A stretch of DNA of 29,211 nucleotides from a virus. The notes beneath the pieces are model-generated. The model did no database searches. It had not been told where the DNA came from and saw only the letters and a list, made by a program, of their open reading frames with translations. Below, in pieces: positions 1,621-28,593 of this stretch (the first letter of the stretch is position 1; each line of letters opens with the position of its first letter). Made by a program: the position numbers and the translations under genes. The DNA is taken from the IMG/VR virus record IMGVR_UViG_3300042806_000219, positions 1 through 29,211 of that record; one strand, 5' to 3'.

Positions 1621-1712
1621 GCCTGGTGTTGGATGACGGGATGTCTGAGGAGGAGTTTATGGCGTGGTTGGCGAGTTTGGACACGTCTGAGGATGTTGGG
1701 GAGCAGGGTTAG
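1617..1712 (+). CDS. 31-aa acidic hypothetical protein
   Basis: GTG 1617 in a GTGA overlap, TAG 1710-1712. Translation VSLVLDDGMSEEEFMAWLASLDTSEDVGEQG. Last gene of the + strand early block. Confidence 0.45.
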   Translation: MSLVLDDGMSEEEFMAWLASLDTSEDVGEQG

Positions 1713-1749
1713 GCTGTTATGCTTGTGGTGAGTGCTGAGTCAGTTTTTG

Positions 1750-1779
1750 CTGGGGCAGGTGCTTACCCGCAGTATTTTT
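1750..1779 (+). terminator. Possible intrinsic terminator ending the early + strand operon
   Basis: CTGGGG (1750-1755) pairs with CCCGCAG (1766-1772) with one bulge, followed by TATTTTT (1773-1779). Confidence 0.35.
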
Positions 1780-2110
1780 GGATACCGCAATGCCGAACCC
1801 CTCTGGGTGTCTAACTCTCGAAAGATGTAGTTAGGTGTTCAGGGGGGTTACGTGCTTCTACGCTCCCGTTTCATCAGGTTATACGCTACCGAAATATCAG
1901 TGTCCCTTATCCTGGTGAAATCTGCGTTATTGCACACATTAGGGAACTTTCATTGGGTTAGATCGTGTGAATCGGGCTGATTGTGTGTGAGCGCACAGAA
2001 TGTCGGCGTACTCAGTCACGTTCGTGTTTGTCGGCGTATGCCGTAACCCCGGTGACGTGCTTGCGCAGAGGCCATCCGGGGTCTTCGGGTGCAAGGTTAG
2101 CATGGGCAAC

Positions 2111-2134
2111 AGAAAAGCCCCTCCGTAGAGGGGC
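2111..2134 (-). terminator. Intrinsic terminator of the minus-strand small ORF
   Basis: GCCCCTC (2117-2123) / GAGGGGC (2128-2134), 7-bp stem with CGTA loop. On the minus strand it is followed by TTTTCTGTT. It lies 18 nt beyond the ORF stop at 2152. Confidence 0.75.
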
Positions 2135-2151
2135 CTTCCTGAGTATGTGGG

Positions 2152-2442
2152 TTAGCGCTGTGCGAATAAGCGCTCGTACTCCGAGTTGATTTCTGCAATC
2201 TCTGGGTTCTCGTTGCGGAGATATTCCCAAATGATTGAATCGTGGAAGTCAATCAACCCGGCTGTGTCGTTGATCCGAACGCTTGCCCGAACGACCTGCT
2301 CGCCAATCATGTTCGTTACGGTTTCAACGCTGCGGATGACAGCGATGCGAGAGCTTCTCTTAGATACGTGGCGAAACTTGATTACATCGCCGTGGACTAG
2401 TTGGTTGGCGTTCATGGTTTCCCTTTCTTCGGTGTTGCTCAT
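2152..2442 (-). CDS. Hypothetical protein (96 aa from ATG 2442; 87 aa if ATG 2415 is used)
   Basis: Track ORF 2152-2472 trimmed. ATG 2442 lies 7 nt downstream of a -10-like TACACT, which fits a leaderless start. ATG 2415 is preceded by GAAAGGGA, an SD-like sequence. I recognise no family motif. Confidence 0.7.
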   Translation of the reverse strand: MSNTEERETMNANQLVHGDVIKFRHVSKRSSRIAVIRSVETVTNMIGEQVVRASVRINDTAGLIDFHDSIIWEYLRNENPEIAEINSEYERLFAQR

Positions 2443-2448
2443 GACTCT

Positions 2449-2477
2449 AGTGTATAGGACTAGACACGCCATGTCAA
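2449..2477 (-). promoter_or_regulatory. Sigma-70-type promoter for the minus-strand ORF, overlapped by an inverted repeat
   Basis: Minus strand reads TTGACA (2477-2472), a 17-nt spacer, then TACACT (2454-2449). The inverted repeat TCTAGT/ACTAGA (2446-2451 / 2458-2463) overlaps the -10. Confidence 0.6.
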
Positions 2478-2537
2478 ACTAATCCGCAAACTATTTTTCT
2501 GACGATTTGCACGGTTCAAACCCGACCAAATGTCTAG

Positions 2538-2622
2538 TGGAGCAGCGGGGAATCGAACCCCGGTGTTGACCGAATCGCTTGCGCGGGTTCTCGGTCAATC
2601 GAATCCATCCTGCCCCAGCTCC
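2538..2622 (-). ncRNA. 85-nt tRNA-like RNA resembling an isolated tmRNA tRNA-like domain (no anticodon arm, no tag-coding module)
   Basis: Minus strand reads GGAGCUG GGGCA GGAU GGAUUCGA UUGACCGA GAACC CGC GCAA GCG AU UCGGUCAA CAC CGGGG UUCGAUU CCCCG CUGCUCC A. There is a 7-position acceptor helix (one U-U mismatch), a canonical T-arm (5 bp plus UUCGAUU loop) and a GGAUUCGA element like the tmRNA D-loop analogue. An 8-bp plus 3-bp helix capped by a GCAA tetraloop sits where the anticodon arm or tmRNA body would be. Confidence 0.6.
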
Positions 2623-2623
2623 A

Positions 2624-2652
2624 AGTATAAGCGCATACTATTTGCAGGTCAC
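2624..2652 (-). promoter_or_regulatory. Candidate promoter for the tRNA-like RNA
   Basis: Minus strand upstream of the RNA reads GTGACC (2652-2647), 17 nt, TATACT (2629-2624). An alternative -10, TAGTAT (2640-2635), would leave a short leader for RNase P. The geometry relative to the RNA 5' end is uncertain. Confidence 0.3.
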
Positions 2653-2716: not shown

Positions 2717-3058
2717 ATGGCCTTGTCGTTGAAAATCCGCAAACTCATCGAGGCTCGTGACGATCACTGCTACCACTGTGGGCAGACGGAAGAATTGCAA
2801 ATTCATCACAGACGGAATAAAGGCATCGGTGGATCTAAGCTTCTGGACACTCCCGATAATCTGATGCGGGTTTGTGCAGCCTGGAATTATGGGATGGAGG
2901 CTGACCCGAGAATTGCGAATCAGGCTCGGGCGTGGAATCATAAGCTGCCGTTGTGGGAGAGGGAGAATTTGCCGGTGTTTGACCGGGCTGGGGGTTGGTG
3001 GTATCTTCAGCCTGATGGCAGTAAGGAACGCTCAGACTGGAAAGACGCAGCGTTCTAG
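2717..3058 (+). CDS. HNH endonuclease
   Basis: 113 aa. CYHCG...LQIHHRRNKG...MRVCAAWN matches the Cys pair, HH and N of the HNH motif. Confidence 0.8.
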   Translation: MALSLKIRKLIEARDDHCYHCGQTEELQIHHRRNKGIGGSKLLDTPDNLMRVCAAWNYGMEADPRIANQARAWNHKLPLWERENLPVFDRAGGWWYLQPDGSKERSDWKDAAF

Positions 3059-3166
3059 GCGGTACAATAGAGTGAGGGCCGAAGCTTAACACTCCGACCC
3101 TCACAGAAAAACCGATGATAACGGCATCGGCTTAGATTCCAGTCTAGCCGATAGAAAAGGCTAAAC

Positions 3167-3943
3167 ATGGAACAATCAATCAGGCTAGAGCGCCGGTTCG
3201 CAATCATTGACGAATGGCTCCTCGACTTAGACATCTCTGACCGGGCTGTGAGGCTGTACGCGGTGCTCGCTCGCTATGCGGATAGTGAAACGCATAAGGC
3301 TTACCCTTCACGCGGCACTCTGGCTGAGCGCCTACATTGCTCGAAGGCTTCCGTAGATCGCGCTGCGCAAGAGCTCGTTGATGCTGGGGCTATGACCAAG
3401 CAACAGCGACACAACAGTTCGGTCATTTATACGCTCCAAGTGTCCTCACCACTGCATAGGGGGGTAGTCACGGGTGATGAGGGGGGGTCTGCACCGGTGA
3501 TGACGGGGGTACTCACGGGTGATGACCTAACTAGAACCACTGAACTAGAACCACAAGAACGAAAACCACTTAACTCTGCGATAGAACAATTTTGGGCAAT
3601 CTATCCTCGAAAGACAGCTAAAGGCAGAGTCCCTGACGCTCTACGAAAAGCGCTTAAGAAGGCAACGATTGAGGAAATCGTGGCTGGTGCTGAACGGTAC
3701 CGTGACGATCCAAACCGTGAGGATGCGTTCACTCAGTATCCTGCGACCTGGTTGAACGCCGAAGGTTGGGAGGATGATCCGTTGCCATTGAGGGTGACGA
3801 TGGGTGTGCGTAAGTTGACGAACGCGGAGCAGGGTGCTTTGCTTGTCAGAAAGTTTGAGGCTGAGGAGGCTGCGGAGAAGCTCCGGCCGAAGGAAATAGA
3901 TTTCGATTATGGGTCAATGATGAAAGGGATAGAAGATGAATAA
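3167..3943 (+). CDS. Replication initiator / replisome-organizer-like protein (N-terminal winged helix)
   Basis: 258 aa. The N-terminus (DRAVRLYAVLARYADSETHKAYPSRGTLAERLHCSKASVDRAAQELVDAG) looks like a winged-helix domain. The C-terminal FWAIYPRK...YPATWLNAEGWEDDP motif is typical of phage/plasmid replication proteins. DNA iterons are embedded mid-gene. AAAGG lies 6 nt before the ATG. Confidence 0.6.
   Translation: MEQSIRLERRFAIIDEWLLDLDISDRAVRLYAVLARYADSETHKAYPSRGTLAERLHCSKASVDRAAQELVDAGAMTKQQRHNSSVIYTLQVSSPLHRGVVTGDEGGSAPVMTGVLTGDDLTRTTELEPQERKPLNSAIEQFWAIYPRKTAKGRVPDALRKALKKATIEEIVAGAERYRDDPNREDAFTQYPATWLNAEGWEDDPLPLRVTMGVRKLTNAEQGALLVRKFEAEEAAEKLRPKEIDFDYGSMMKGIEDE
3459..3525. repeat. 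Three tandem ~22-bp iterons (G-run followed by CAC[G/C]GGTGATGA); candidate origin of replication
   Basis: The CACSGGTGATGA cores are at 3469-3480, 3492-3503 and 3514-3525, each preceded by 5-7 G. The middle copy is translated in a different frame (APVMT) from the outer copies (VTGDE / LTGDD). Conservation is therefore at the DNA level, not the protein level. Confidence 0.6.
3529..3554. repeat. Two copies of AACTAGAACCAC with a 14-bp period, next to the iterons
   Basis: Copies at 3529-3540 and 3543-3554, read in different frames (TRTT versus LEP). A degenerate AAACCAC follows at about 3563. Confidence 0.5.
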
Positions 3944-14767: not shown

Positions 14768-14793
14768 CAGTTTAGAGCGCCGTTGACGGGTTT

Positions 14794-14840
14794 GCCCCTG
14801 CCAGGTATTCCACCCTTTCCCTGGTAGGGGCTTTTCTTTT
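14794..14840 (+). terminator. Strong intrinsic terminator upstream of the capsid gene
   Basis: GCCCCTGCCAGG (14794-14805) pairs with CCTGGTAGGGGC (14820-14831): 12 bp with one G-U. The loop is 14 nt and TTTTCTTTT follows. Confidence 0.8.
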
Positions 14841-14959
14841 GGAACGGGTTGCACGGCACGGTTTACAATTAGAGGTAGCCGGTGTGCGTCATCGCTACGG
14901 TGAGCGATTCTGTGTTATCACGGTTGCGATCCATATTCATTTAGAAAGAAAGATTACTG

Positions 14960-28391: not shown

Positions 28392-28593
28392 TGTGACGGA
28401 TATTCGGGCGGCTCGGTTAGCTGACCTGATTATGGCTGAGTGGTTGGATTCGCAATCTGATTCGGGTGCAATCTGGGAGAAGTCTTGGGCTGCTTTGAAA
28501 CTTGCTAAGACGGAGAACCCGGAGGAAGTGTTTCGTGAGGCTTTGCAGATAGCTCACGCTCGTTGGAAGAAGATGTTCAATGTTAAGTCCTGA
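28378..28593 (+). CDS. Hypothetical early protein
   Basis: Track ORF 28366-28593 trimmed to ATG 28378, which follows GGAGG. 71 aa. Confidence 0.6.
   Translation: MVENNVTDIRAARLADLIMAEWLDSQSDSGAIWEKSWAALKLAKTENPEEVFREALQIAHARWKKMFNVKS

What the first reader, a model, noticed from the sequence alone, without database searches (positions are those of the whole stretch)
2538..2622. 85-nt RNA resembling an isolated tmRNA tRNA-like domain with no mRNA module
Seen in sequence, on the minus strand:
- A 5' strand GGAGCUG that pairs with a 3' strand CUGCUCC (one U-U mismatch), followed by discriminator A.
- A canonical T-arm, CGGGG-UUCGAUU-CCCCG.
- No D-stem and no 7-nt anticodon loop.
- After a 5-nt linker there is GGAUGGAUUCGA. 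Compare the E. coli tmRNA 5' end, GGGGCUG-AUUCU-GGAUUCGAC.
- Then an 8-bp helix (UUGACCGA/UCGGUCAA), extended by CGC/GCG and capped with a GCAA tetraloop. This sits where tmRNA helix P2 would lead into the pseudoknots and tag reading frame.

Established knowledge: this acceptor, D-loop analogue, P2 and T-arm layout is the part of tmRNA bound by SmpB and EF-Tu. The G3-U70 pair is the AlaRS identity element. Here position 3 is A-U, so alanylation is doubtful.

Inference: the phage may encode a minimal tRNA-like-domain RNA. It could act as a decoy for SmpB or for tRNA-processing or modifying factors, interfering with trans-translation or with a tRNA-targeting defence. It could also be a primer or processing signal. 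Some large phages carry full tmRNA genes. I am not aware of a natural RNA consisting of the tRNA-like domain alone.
Basis: partly seen in the sequence, partly recalled or inferred. Interest (0 to 1): 0.75.

Follow-up and report, generated by a model that had tools for sequence, protein, structure and literature searches.

The report
Phage tag-less mini tmRNA gene
This phage carries a 79-base RNA gene that is only the tRNA-like head of the bacterial ribosome-rescue RNA (tmRNA), a kind previously reported in one mycobacteriophage, and here it proves to be one member of a widespread phage family that probably interferes with the host's ribosome-rescue and protein-tagging system.

Summary
The true molecule is window 2616→2538 on the minus strand, 79 nt. 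It has a perfect 7-bp acceptor stem (GGGGCAG/CUGCUCC) with G3·U70 and discriminator A73, which are the alanine identity elements. It also has UGGAUUCGA, an 8-bp P2 helix capped by a CGC-GCAA-GCG hairpin, and a canonical T-arm. Rfam tmRNA scores 48.3 bits (gathering 47); only 22 nt occupy the place of 303 model positions (pseudoknots and tag frame).

It is not unique. Pattern scans found at least 119 viral contigs and 70 unique variants. All keep G1-C72, G2-C71, G3·U70 and A73, while the other helix positions covary. A model built from these variants finds the published "TLD-only" tmRNA of mycobacteriophage DS6A (53 bits). That RNA is reported to inhibit endogenous tmRNA in E. coli. The model also finds unannotated copies in Stenotrophomonas phage Jojan60 and Streptomyces phages LuckySocke and BRock.

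In the window's clade a −10 box ends 6–7 nt before G1. Related phages carry the gene at another site that is empty in the window.

Most likely function: an alanine-charged, SmpB-binding competitor of host tmRNA. Verdict: new member of a known kind.

The parts
2538..2616 (-). Tag-less (TLD-only) mini tmRNA gene, 79 nt from G1 (2616) to discriminator A73-equivalent (2538). The next three bases are CUA (2537-2535), so CCA is not encoded.
   Evidence: Rfam RF00023 48.3 bits over 2616-2535. Family model R1 77.3 bits. Sequence read.
2610..2616 (-). Acceptor stem 5' strand, GGGGCAG.
   Evidence: Pairs perfectly with 2545-2539 and includes G3.U70. The end-anchored count over 71 sequences gives 98.6-100% pairing at every position.
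2599..2607 (-). D-loop analogue UGGAUUCGA, the conserved tmRNA 5' TLD motif.
   Evidence: Invariant UGG.UUCGA in alignment A1, although the search patterns fixed these bases. Matches the Rfam tmRNA consensus GGaUUCGAC.
2566..2598 (-). P2 helix (UUGACCGA 2598-2591 with UCGGUCAA 2573-2566) enclosing an A-rich 5' bulge (GAACC) and the capping hairpin CGC-GCAA-GCG (2585-2576).
   Evidence: All 8 P2 pairs show compensatory changes across 73 sequences. The same bulge-and-hairpin architecture recurs across the family, including DS6A.
2546..2562 (-). T-arm CGGGG-UUCGAUU-CCCCG, preceded by the junction CAC (2565-2563; GAC in the closest relatives).
   Evidence: T-stem 100% paired, with its two outer pairs showing all four Watson-Crick types. 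The junction difference is seen. DS6A, L058 and L127 also have CAC.
2538..2545 (-). Acceptor stem 3' strand CUGCUCC (2545-2539) and discriminator A (2538).
   Evidence: U70 and A73 were found in 71 of 71 members, although the search pattern constrained neither.
2624..2652 (-). Predicted promoter of the RNA: GTGACC, 17 nt, TATACT. The -10 box ends 7 nt before G1.
   Evidence: Consensus scan. A TATACT or TATAAT box ends 6-7 nt before G1 in the divergent relatives L002, L008, L030, L046, L060, L094 and L107. Expression was not shown.
2118..2477 (-). Downstream same-strand unit, probably separate from the RNA. It comprises a promoter-like site (-10 TACACT 2454-2449), an SD-like GAAAGGGAAAC, a small ORF of about 87 aa (ATG 2415 to stop 2152) with no family match, and an invariant terminator (2131-2118).
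   Evidence: The ORF content varies among L001, L004 and L007 while the promoter, SD and terminator are conserved. The ATGs at 2472 and 2442 are not credible or not conserved.
2717..3943 (+). Divergently transcribed neighbours: HNH endonuclease (2717-3058) and replication initiator with HTH_36 (3167-3943).
   Evidence: PHROG 740 and 270, Pfam PF13730. The same neighbours occur in 14-15 loci carrying 11-12 RNA variants.
14793..14880 (+). Empty alternative site. It has a terminator (14793-14840) followed by ..TTTACAATTAGAGGTAG, between the head protease and major head genes. Related phages carry a -10 box plus the mini tmRNA here.
   Evidence: Alignment A4 shows a clean absence of about 94 nt in the window relative to L026, L041, L020 and L043. 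Context shown.

Best explanation
Window 2616->2538 (minus strand) is a gene for a CDS-less, tRNA-like-domain-only tmRNA. It belongs to the same family as the one reported in mycobacteriophage DS6A.

Proposed course, with each step marked as shown or inferred:
1. It is transcribed from its own promoter, whose -10 box ends 7 nt upstream, so G1 is at or next to the transcription start (inferred from conserved spacing).
2. The 3' trailer is trimmed and CCA is added by host enzymes (inferred, because CCA is not encoded).
3. It folds into acceptor stem, D-loop analogue, capped P2 and T-arm (shown by covariation).
4. Host AlaRS charges it with alanine (inferred from invariant G1-C72, G2-C71, G3.U70 and A73).
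5. Host SmpB and EF-Tu bind it as they bind tmRNA (inferred from retention of the tmRNA TLD consensus).
6. It competes with host tmRNA for SmpB and for stalled ribosomes. Having no resume codon, tag frame or stop codon, it suppresses normal trans-translation and ssrA tagging during infection. Inhibition is reported for the DS6A homologue in E. coli and inferred here.
For: Identity:
- Rfam tmRNA 48.3 bits, above the gathering score, with only the TLD parts of the model matched.
- Model R1, built only from metagenomic viral elements, scores the window at 77.3 bits and DS6A 28478-28557 at 53.3 bits.
- DS6A is listed as 'TLD only' tmRNA (PMC4131195).

Structure:
- 407 compensatory cells against 143 +/- 10 in shuffles.
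- Covariation score 0.64 against at most 0.135 for slid partners.
- 8 of 8 P2 pairs covary and the T-stem is 100% paired.
- Acceptor positions 4-7 are 98.6-100% paired with 5-6 pair types each.

Charging:
- 71 of 71 unique members have G3.U70 rather than G-C, plus A73. Neither U70 nor A73 was imposed by the search pattern or the filter.

Strand:
- A G.U pair would be A-C on the other strand. R1 scores the plus strand at only 7.3 bits.

Function:
- The suggested mechanism is 'perhaps acting by titrating SmpB' (PMC4131195).

Independent gene:
- The -10 box is conserved at fixed spacing in divergent relatives.
- 25 of 107 copies lie in tRNA arrays, 24 of them on the same strand.
- The cassette occupies different sites in related phages, and one such site is empty in the window.

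Phage-borne:
- At least 119 viral contigs.
- The narrower pattern gave 12 viral contigs but only 9 matches in 596 Gb of bacterial genomes, of which only two copies in one MAG are clearly true members.
Against: - No expression, end-mapping, aminoacylation or SmpB-binding data exist for this RNA.
- I could not read the primary paper (Mao et al. 2009). The inhibition result rests on two secondary statements from the same laboratory and concerns heterologous expression in E. coli.
[quoted passage not shown] Plain SmpB titration would then not explain why the alanine identity set is invariant in nature. That points to a function needing charging, which fits competition on the ribosome but fits tag-free rescue equally well.
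- The benefit to the phage is unknown.
- The window's RNA has C instead of the usual G in the GAC junction before the T-arm, as DS6A does. This lowers its Rfam score to just above threshold.
- The host is unknown.
Confidence: 0.55

Rival explanations
1. Tag-free ribosome rescue. The same molecule, charged with alanine and bound by SmpB, enters stalled ribosomes and accepts the nascent chain. The ribosome is then freed by drop-off, peptidyl-tRNA hydrolase or ArfB-type hydrolysis. Ribosomes are recycled during infection without marking phage proteins for proteolysis. The RNA would be a helper of translation rather than an inhibitor.
For: - Invariant alanine identity elements in 71 of 71 members argue that charging matters, and a mere SmpB sponge would not need it.
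- A quarter of copies sit in phage tRNA arrays alongside other translation-supporting genes.
- Mitochondrial tmRNAs without a tag frame are conserved together with imported SmpB and are thought to help cells deal with incomplete mRNAs (PMC11915505).
Against: - There is no stop codon, so release needs an unproven extra step.
- The only reported experiment on a family member found inhibition of endogenous tmRNA, not complementation.
- Nothing in the sequence distinguishes this from competitive inhibition.
Confidence: 0.27
2. Decoy or countermeasure against a host defence that senses or cuts tRNA- or tmRNA-like RNAs. Examples are systems carrying SmpB-like RNA-binding domains, or nucleases that act on tmRNA. 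The ribosome would not be the target.
For: - CoCoNuT defence systems carry SmpB-like domains predicted to bind tmRNA (PMC11090510).
- A phage anti-CRISPR protein works with tRNA and tmRNA fragments (PMC11662646).
- The gene behaves like a movable accessory cassette.
Against: - This is purely circumstantial.
- No defence or anti-defence gene is consistently linked to the RNA in 96 loci.
- A decoy would not need invariant AlaRS identity elements.
Confidence: 0.08
3. Integration site (attP) or a captured fragment of the host ssrA gene, with no function of its own as an RNA.
For: - tmRNA genes are frequent integration sites, and phage attP sites carry their 3' ends (PMC11915505 abstract; PMC9004378).
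- Several mycobacteriophages match only the T-arm and 3' acceptor part.
Against: - The element contains the 5' half as well, closed into a complete fold.
- It has its own conserved -10 box.
- Both strands of each helix covary across at least 70 variants.
- No integrase was found among the 30 largest ORFs of the window.
- Many copies lie in tRNA arrays of large phages.
Confidence: 0.03
4. An ordinary or degenerate tRNA-Ala gene whose cloverleaf was missed.
For: It has a 7-bp acceptor stem, a T-arm, G3.U70 and A73.
Against: - ARAGORN finds no tRNA in the window.
- The best clan member in Rfam is tmRNA, not tRNA.
- There is no D-stem.
- The 33 nt between the D-loop analogue and the junction form one capped helix without a 7-nt anticodon loop, in every family member.
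Confidence: 0.01

Closest known systems
CDS-less ('TLD only') tmRNA of Mycobacterium phage DS6A (tmRNA Website Phage__Mycobacterium.9; Mao et al. 2009, cited in PMC4131195 and PMC11915505)
   Same: - Phage-encoded and about 80 nt.
- 7-bp acceptor stem with G3.U70 and A73.
- UGG..UCGAC motif.
- P2 closed by an A-rich bulge plus a short hairpin. The DS6A cap AAAACCGCACGCGG matches the family consensus.
- CAC junction and T-arm.
- No pseudoknots or tag frame.
- Found by the same covariance model: DS6A 53.3 bits, window 77.3 bits.
   Different: - Sequence differs throughout the helices.
- DS6A lies between gp33 and a DNA polymerase III gene, on the same strand as its neighbours, in a temperate phage that has an integrase.
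- The window's copy is antisense to all protein genes and divergent from an HNH/replication operon, and no integrase was seen.
- Only DS6A has any reported experimental test.
Standard one-piece bacterial tmRNA (SsrA; Rfam RF00023)
   Same: The whole tRNA-like domain is shared: acceptor stem with the alanine identity set, GGAUUCGA, proximal P2, (G/C)AC junction and T-arm. It reaches the Rfam gathering score.
   Different: It lacks the roughly 300-nt body: PK1-PK4, resume codon, tag reading frame and stop codon. It therefore cannot carry out the mRNA half of trans-translation.
Mitochondrial tmRNAs of jakobids and others, and the ~65-bp Mallomonadaceae plastid forms (Jacob et al. 2004; PMC11915505)
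   Same: These are natural tmRNA derivatives without a tag reading frame and are reduced to little more than the TLD.
   Different: - They are organellar products of reductive evolution that work with an imported SmpB.
- They are not accessory genes of a virus acting on a host that has its own full tmRNA.
- I made no direct sequence comparison here.
Full-length phage tmRNAs (mycobacteriophages Bxz1, Wildcat and others; Bacillus phage G; two-piece forms in marine phages such as Melnitz)
   Same: They are phage-borne ssrA-derived genes, often next to tRNA genes (PMC4131195; PMC9004378).
   Different: Those keep a tag frame and are found by ARAGORN. This one has none, and ARAGORN either misses it or miscalls a long false tmRNA around it.
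Engineered TLD minihelices used for SmpB-TLD crystal structures (Gutmann et al. 2003; Bessho et al. 2007, as cited in PMC11090510 and PMC4131195)
   Same: From my own knowledge: the design is the same, a TLD with P2 closed by a short loop, and such constructs bind SmpB.
   Different: Those are laboratory constructs. This is a natural gene under selection. I did not compare sequences.

Membership tests
tmRNA (Rfam RF00023, standard one-piece) | Score at or above the curated gathering threshold of the covariance model | tested here: met
   48.3 bits against 47, E = 2e-16. This is marginal. Closest relative L001 scores 55.7 and other members up to 81.1.
tmRNA (Rfam RF00023, standard one-piece) | tRNA-like domain: 7-bp acceptor stem with G3.U70, discriminator A, GGAUUCGA D-loop analogue, T-arm | tested here: met
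   All are present in the Rfam register and conserved across the family.
tmRNA (Rfam RF00023, standard one-piece) | mRNA-like domain with resume codon, tag reading frame and stop codon | tested here: not met
   Only 22 nt occupy the place of 303 model positions. Those nucleotides form a closed hairpin. ARAGORN finds no tag.
tmRNA (Rfam RF00023, standard one-piece) | Pseudoknots PK1-PK4 | tested here: not met
   The 79-nt RNA has no sequence available for them.
CDS-less / TLD-only phage tmRNA (DS6A type) | Homology to the DS6A element | tested here: met
   Model R1, built without DS6A, finds DS6A 28478-28557 at 53.3 bits (E = 1e-14) and the window at 77.3 bits. The cap architecture is shared.
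CDS-less / TLD-only phage tmRNA (DS6A type) | About 80 nt, with P2 closed by a short hairpin directly after the TLD; phage-encoded | tested here: met
   Family lengths are 75-86 nt to the discriminator and the window is 79 nt. The window encodes terminase, portal, head, tail and lysis genes.
CDS-less / TLD-only phage tmRNA (DS6A type) | Inhibits endogenous tmRNA function when expressed | not testable with these tools
   Reported only for DS6A in E. coli, through secondary citations.
CDS-less / TLD-only phage tmRNA (DS6A type) | Alanylation by AlaRS and binding by SmpB and EF-Tu | not testable with these tools
   Only inferred from invariant G3.U70 and A73 and the retained TLD consensus.
tRNA (Rfam RF00005) | Cloverleaf with D-arm and anticodon arm, detected by tRNA finders | tested here: not met
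   ARAGORN finds 0 genes. No tRNA match at gathering score, and tmRNA is the best clan member. The single capped helix replaces the D-stem and anticodon arm.
Two-piece (permuted) tmRNA (Rfam RF04321 and relatives) | Permuted order (3' acceptor piece before the 5' piece) and a separate coding piece | tested here: not met
   tmRNA_permuted scores 18.6 bits against gathering 47 and matches only the T-arm region. The order here is standard and P2 is closed by a loop.
attP carrying a 3' ssrA fragment | Only the 3' part of ssrA, adjacent to an integrase gene | tested here: not met
   The 5' half and a promoter are present. No integrase was found among the ORFs scanned. The window may not be the whole genome.

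The most novel reading that the evidence does not exclude
Tag-less mini tmRNAs are a widespread phage accessory cassette, not a DS6A oddity. Their function requires aminoacylation. They would be delivered as Ala-TLD.SmpB.EF-Tu into stalled ribosomes, where they either jam or bypass trans-translation. That would protect phage proteins from ssrA tagging, or block the host's recovery from defence-induced mRNA cleavage. This would be a ribosome-level host-takeover or anti-defence strategy carried out by an 80-nt RNA.
Probability: 0.3. Interest if true: 0.75.

Novelty: new member of a known kind. Interest (0 to 1): 0.5.

Why it matters
Trans-translation is the main bacterial ribosome-rescue pathway. 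How phages deal with it is poorly understood.

The papers I could search name one phage, DS6A, with a tag-less tmRNA. This window shows the same device in an unrelated small siphovirus. Following it up shows the device in at least 119 viral contigs and in several cultured phages of Streptomyces, Stenotrophomonas and Mycobacterium, where it is unannotated or annotated as a hypothetical protein.

The strict conservation of the alanine identity set makes a testable point: the natural function probably needs charging, not only SmpB titration.

There is also a practical consequence. ARAGORN misses or miscalls these genes and Rfam detects them only near threshold, so phage annotation pipelines overlook them. 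A dedicated covariance model would fix this.

Tried and rejected
It is not conserved in other clades, and the GGGGCAG register gives seven perfect pairs.
- Ordinary tRNA was rejected.
- attP or a host ssrA fragment was rejected.
- Two-piece tmRNA was rejected.
- blastn of the 361-nt region against 50,697 phage records found nothing at E <= 1e-5. The 8-kb flank hit only an HTH gene of three Arthrobacter phages at 68-76% identity, so the host remains unknown.
- The partial blastn hits in Streptomyces phage Lika and Mycobacterium phage Trixie are other tRNA-like elements, not family members (R1 at most 17.8 and 15.2 bits).
- Rfam at gathering threshold failed to find the DS6A element. My own model found it.
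- The MAFFT alignment and the first Infernal realignment left the 5' acceptor strand out of register where linkers are longer. The 76% acceptor pairing is an artefact. I recounted it anchored at the RNA ends.
- ARAGORN's full-length tmRNA calls in L074 and L128 are artefacts.
- The repeated 12-mer AGTTTGCGGATT (2481-2492 and 2734-2745) looked like an operator pair but is not conserved in the closest relatives.
- The 106-aa ORF start at 2472 lies inside the predicted -35 hexamer. The ATG at 2442 is ATA in L001 and L007.
- No protein family is linked to the RNA across all contexts.
- Mao et al. 2009 could not be read.

Full report
**1. What is in the sequence**

On the minus strand the window reads ...TATACTTGGAGCT-GGGGCAGGAUGGAUUCGAUUGACCGAGAACCCGCGCAAGCGAUUCGGUCAACACCGGGGUUCGAUUCCCCGCUGCUCCA-CUAG....

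ARAGORN finds no tRNA or tmRNA anywhere in the window. The Rfam scan gives one match at gathering level in 29 kb. It is tmRNA RF00023 at 2616-2535(-), 48.3 bits against a threshold of 47, E = 2e-16.

The alignment matches only the two ends of the 374-position model. These are the acceptor 5' strand, GGAUUCGA and proximal P2, then distal P2, T-arm, acceptor 3' strand and ACCA. Only 22 nt stand where the model has 303 positions of pseudoknots and tag frame.

The 5' acceptor strand is GGGGCAG (2616-2610), not GGAGCUG (2622-2616). In this register all seven pairs are standard, pair 3-70 is G.U, and the discriminator is A.

The molecule folds much better than shuffles (z = -3.3). The thermodynamic optimum sacrifices the T-arm. 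The canonical TLD fold is 2.1 kcal/mol higher and is the one supported by comparative evidence.

**2. It is one of a large family**

The pattern TGGATTCGA-N25-55-GGGTTCGATTCCC has 22 fixed bases. By my own rough estimate it should give less than one chance hit in the viral collection. It hit 12 other viral contigs.

Neither pattern constrains the acceptor stem. Yet 70 of 83 unique matches have a stem of at least 6 of 7 pairs placed 2-4 nt (once 7 nt) upstream of UGG. All 70 start GGG and have U at position 70 and A at position 73.

Counted from the RNA ends over 71 unique sequences including DS6A:
- Pairs 1, 2 and 3 are invariant: G-C, G-C, G.U.
- Pairs 4-7 are 98.6-100% paired, with five or six different pair types each.

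On an Infernal alignment of 73 sequences:
- All eight P2 pairs show double changes.
- The T-stem is 100% paired, and its two outer pairs use all four Watson-Crick types.
- There are 407 compensatory cells against 143 +/- 10 in shuffles.
- The covariation score is 0.64 against at most 0.135 when partners are slid.
- The lower acceptor figure in that call is an alignment artefact of variable linker length.

The interior always has the same design:
- P2 of 6-9 bp.
- An A-rich bulge on the 5' side, often AAAG or AAAA.
- A 3-4 bp hairpin with a 4-5 nt loop.
- Zero to three unpaired bases, then the P2 return strand.
- (G/C)AC, then the T-arm.

G.U at 3-70 would be A-C on the complementary strand. 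The family model scores the window's plus strand at only 7.3 bits. The functional strand is therefore the minus strand, although every protein match in the window lies on the plus strand.

**3. Relation to what is known**

Hudson, Lau and Williams (2014, PMC4131195) list 'Mycobacterium phage DS6A (TLD only)' among phages with ssrA. [quoted passage not shown] It places the DS6A form beside mitochondrial tmRNAs without a tag frame and two ~65-bp plastid forms. I could not obtain Mao et al. 2009 itself.

Rfam at gathering threshold does not find the DS6A element. My covariance model R1, built only from the 70 metagenomic variants, finds it at JN698994 28478-28557. That is 53.3 bits, between gp33 and the DNA polymerase III gene. 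Its sequence is GGGGCCG-CAA-UGGUGGUCGAC-CGCCG..AAAACCGCACGCGG..CGGCG-GCAC-GCGAG-UUCGAUU-CUCGC-CGGCUCC-A, which has the same architecture and the same G3.U70.

The window's RNA is therefore a member of the DS6A kind.

Searches of the held literature found no description of this as a broad phage family. That is absence within that library only.

**4. Distribution**

Cultured phages with full-length copies:
- Stenotrophomonas virus Jojan60: Rfam 61.8 bits, R1 76.4 bits. It lies after four tRNA genes and before the primase gene, partly under a 'hypothetical protein' CDS.
- Streptomyces phage LuckySocke (R1 81.1 bits) and BRock (75.8 bits), inside tRNA arrays and unannotated.
- By blastn also GiJojo, Alone3 and pSt2308.

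The narrower pattern found 12 viral contigs. In 596 Gb of bacterial and archaeal species representatives it found 9 places, of which only two copies in one Poribacteria MAG score as clear members. The family is essentially phage-borne.

About a quarter of copies (25 of 107) lie within 600 nt of tRNA genes, 24 of them on the same strand. The rest are solitary.

**5. Local context in the window**

The window looks like a small siphovirus. It encodes a RecE-like exonuclease, an HNH endonuclease, a replication initiator, RusA, terminase, portal, head protease, major head protein, glycosyltransferases, tape measure and endolysin, all on the plus strand. No integrase was found among the 30 largest ORFs.

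The RNA lies in a variable gap (about 1389-2716) between conserved plus-strand genes. It is transcribed divergently from the HNH gene (ATG at 2717) and the replication initiator.

A promoter-like site, GTGACC-17-TATACT, ends 7 nt before G1. In divergent relatives with the same neighbours (L002, L008, L030, L046, L060, L094, L107) a TATACT or TATAAT box ends 6-7 nt before G1. The divergent gene's start codon lies about 20 nt further upstream. So the 5' end is probably made by transcription initiation rather than by RNase P.

CCA is not encoded here (CUA). It is encoded in only a minority of family members.

Downstream on the same strand are a second promoter-like site, a Shine-Dalgarno-like sequence, a small ORF whose content varies among the closest relatives, and an invariant terminator.

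Among those closest relatives (L001, L004, L007) the RNA is invariant except for one base: G to C in the GAC junction. DS6A shares that variant.

**6. A movable cassette**

In 25 loci (10 RNA variants) the RNA lies on the coding strand between the head maturation protease and major head genes. It follows a terminator and a -10 box.

The window has the same gene families and the same flanks at 14793-14880. It has a clean absence of about 94 nt exactly where those phages carry the -10 box plus RNA. R1 with filters off finds no second copy in the window.

Related phages thus keep the gene at different positions. This argues for an independently selected accessory module.

**7. Mechanism**

Shown here:
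- The fold.
- Family membership.
- The conservation of the AlaRS identity set.
- The absence of any coding module.
- The phage-borne distribution.

Reported in the literature for the DS6A homologue: inhibition of endogenous tmRNA in E. coli.

Inferred:
- Transcription from the adjacent promoter.
- CCA addition and alanylation.
- SmpB and EF-Tu binding.
- Competition with host tmRNA for SmpB and stalled ribosomes, which would suppress tagging.

The invariance of G3.U70 and A73 is hard to explain by passive SmpB titration alone, given that inhibition in E. coli was reported not to need charging. The natural role therefore probably involves the charged RNA on the ribosome. That leaves two readings I cannot separate from sequence:
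- Competitive jamming of trans-translation (preferred, because it matches the only experiment).
- Tag-free rescue, as proposed for mitochondrial forms.

A decoy role against defences that recognise tmRNA-like RNAs is possible but unsupported.

**8. Verdict**

The element is a new member of a known but obscure kind.

The added value is the demonstration that the kind is widespread, is under strong selection for the alanine identity set, has its own promoter, and is systematically missed by annotation.

Noticed in passing
window 14793-14880 (+): Empty cassette site between the head protease and major head genes. The terminator and the downstream TTTACAATTAGAGGTAG flank are conserved with phages that carry the mini tmRNA there, but the window lacks about 94 nt (the -10 box plus the RNA).
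   Followed up: yes
window 1700-2110 (both strands): About 400 nt of apparently non-coding DNA that is nearly invariant among the window, L001, L004 and L007. It contains TACGCCGACA twice and lies between the leftward terminator and the next plus-strand gene. It may be an origin or another regulatory region.
   Followed up: no
window 2481-2492 and 2734-2745 (-): An exact 12-mer, AGTTTGCGGATT, occurs twice and flanks the RNA gene. With up to 2 mismatches there are 11 matches against 2.9 expected. The first copy is not conserved in the closest relatives, so it is probably not an operator pair.
   Followed up: partly
window 2152-2477 (-); L004 and L007 homologous regions: Small leftward cassette with a conserved promoter, SD-like sequence and terminator but variable ORF content. 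L004 has two ORFs, each preceded by the same ACGAAAGGGAAACCATG. L007 has a different ORF. The 87-aa product in the window has no PHROG or Pfam match.
   Followed up: partly
L013 (Stenotrophomonas virus Jojan60, ON045087) 3001-3083: A complete mini tmRNA (Rfam 61.8 bits, CCA encoded) follows four tRNA genes. A CDS annotated as 'hypothetical protein' (UPU15879.1) overlaps its first ~29 nt. This is probably a mis-annotation.
   Followed up: yes
L074 6093-6154 (-): A Pistol self-cleaving ribozyme (RF02679, 51.9 bits against gathering 34.5) lies about 100 nt upstream of the mini tmRNA on the same strand. It may process the transcript.
   Followed up: no
L074 5905-6228 and L128 10045-10574: ARAGORN calls full-length tmRNAs with implausible tags (AWDYNPMWVQCSA, VTANHRRIV) around mini tmRNAs. 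Rfam prefers the 80-nt form. This is a likely source of false phage tmRNA annotations.
   Followed up: yes
L015 (Mycobacterium phage Trixie, NC_023731) about 1041-1142: An unannotated ~100-nt tRNA-like element near the right genome end, just upstream of gp94. It has a 7-bp acceptor stem with G3-C70, a T-arm and an internal GAUCG-UGCAAG-CGAUC hairpin. It is not a member of this family (R1 15.2 bits).
   Followed up: partly
L014 (Streptomyces phage Lika, NC_021298) 5-22, 756-774, 1827-1845, 2521-2539, 3246-3264: Five intergenic copies of a T-arm-like hairpin, ACCnGGGUUCGAGUCCCnG, in a 5-kb stretch. One is flanked by GGGAG/CUCCC like an acceptor/T-arm minihelix next to an Ocr-like gene.
   Followed up: no
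L133 6313-6396 (-) and L134 7835-7918 (+), Candidatus Poribacteria MAG OZ240244: Two oppositely oriented copies of a mini tmRNA (about 59 bits each) on one bacterial chromosome. These are the only clear bacterial-genome members found. It is unknown whether they lie in a prophage.
   Followed up: no
Phage records (Mycobacterium phages Validus, Milly, Mufasa and others at about 33-34 kb; Microbacterium phages Armstrong and others at the right end): blastn matches limited to the T-arm and 3' acceptor part of the element, in unannotated DNA. They may be attP cores for tmRNA or tRNA genes, or other tRNA-like pieces.
   Followed up: no
L017 301-1503 (DS6A gp76) and L141 3024-3070 (BRock gp168): Two carriers of the mini tmRNA also encode RNA ligases: RtcB-like in DS6A, and an RNA ligase next to the tRNA array in BRock. 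This hints at a wider tRNA and tmRNA repair or protection toolkit.
   Followed up: no
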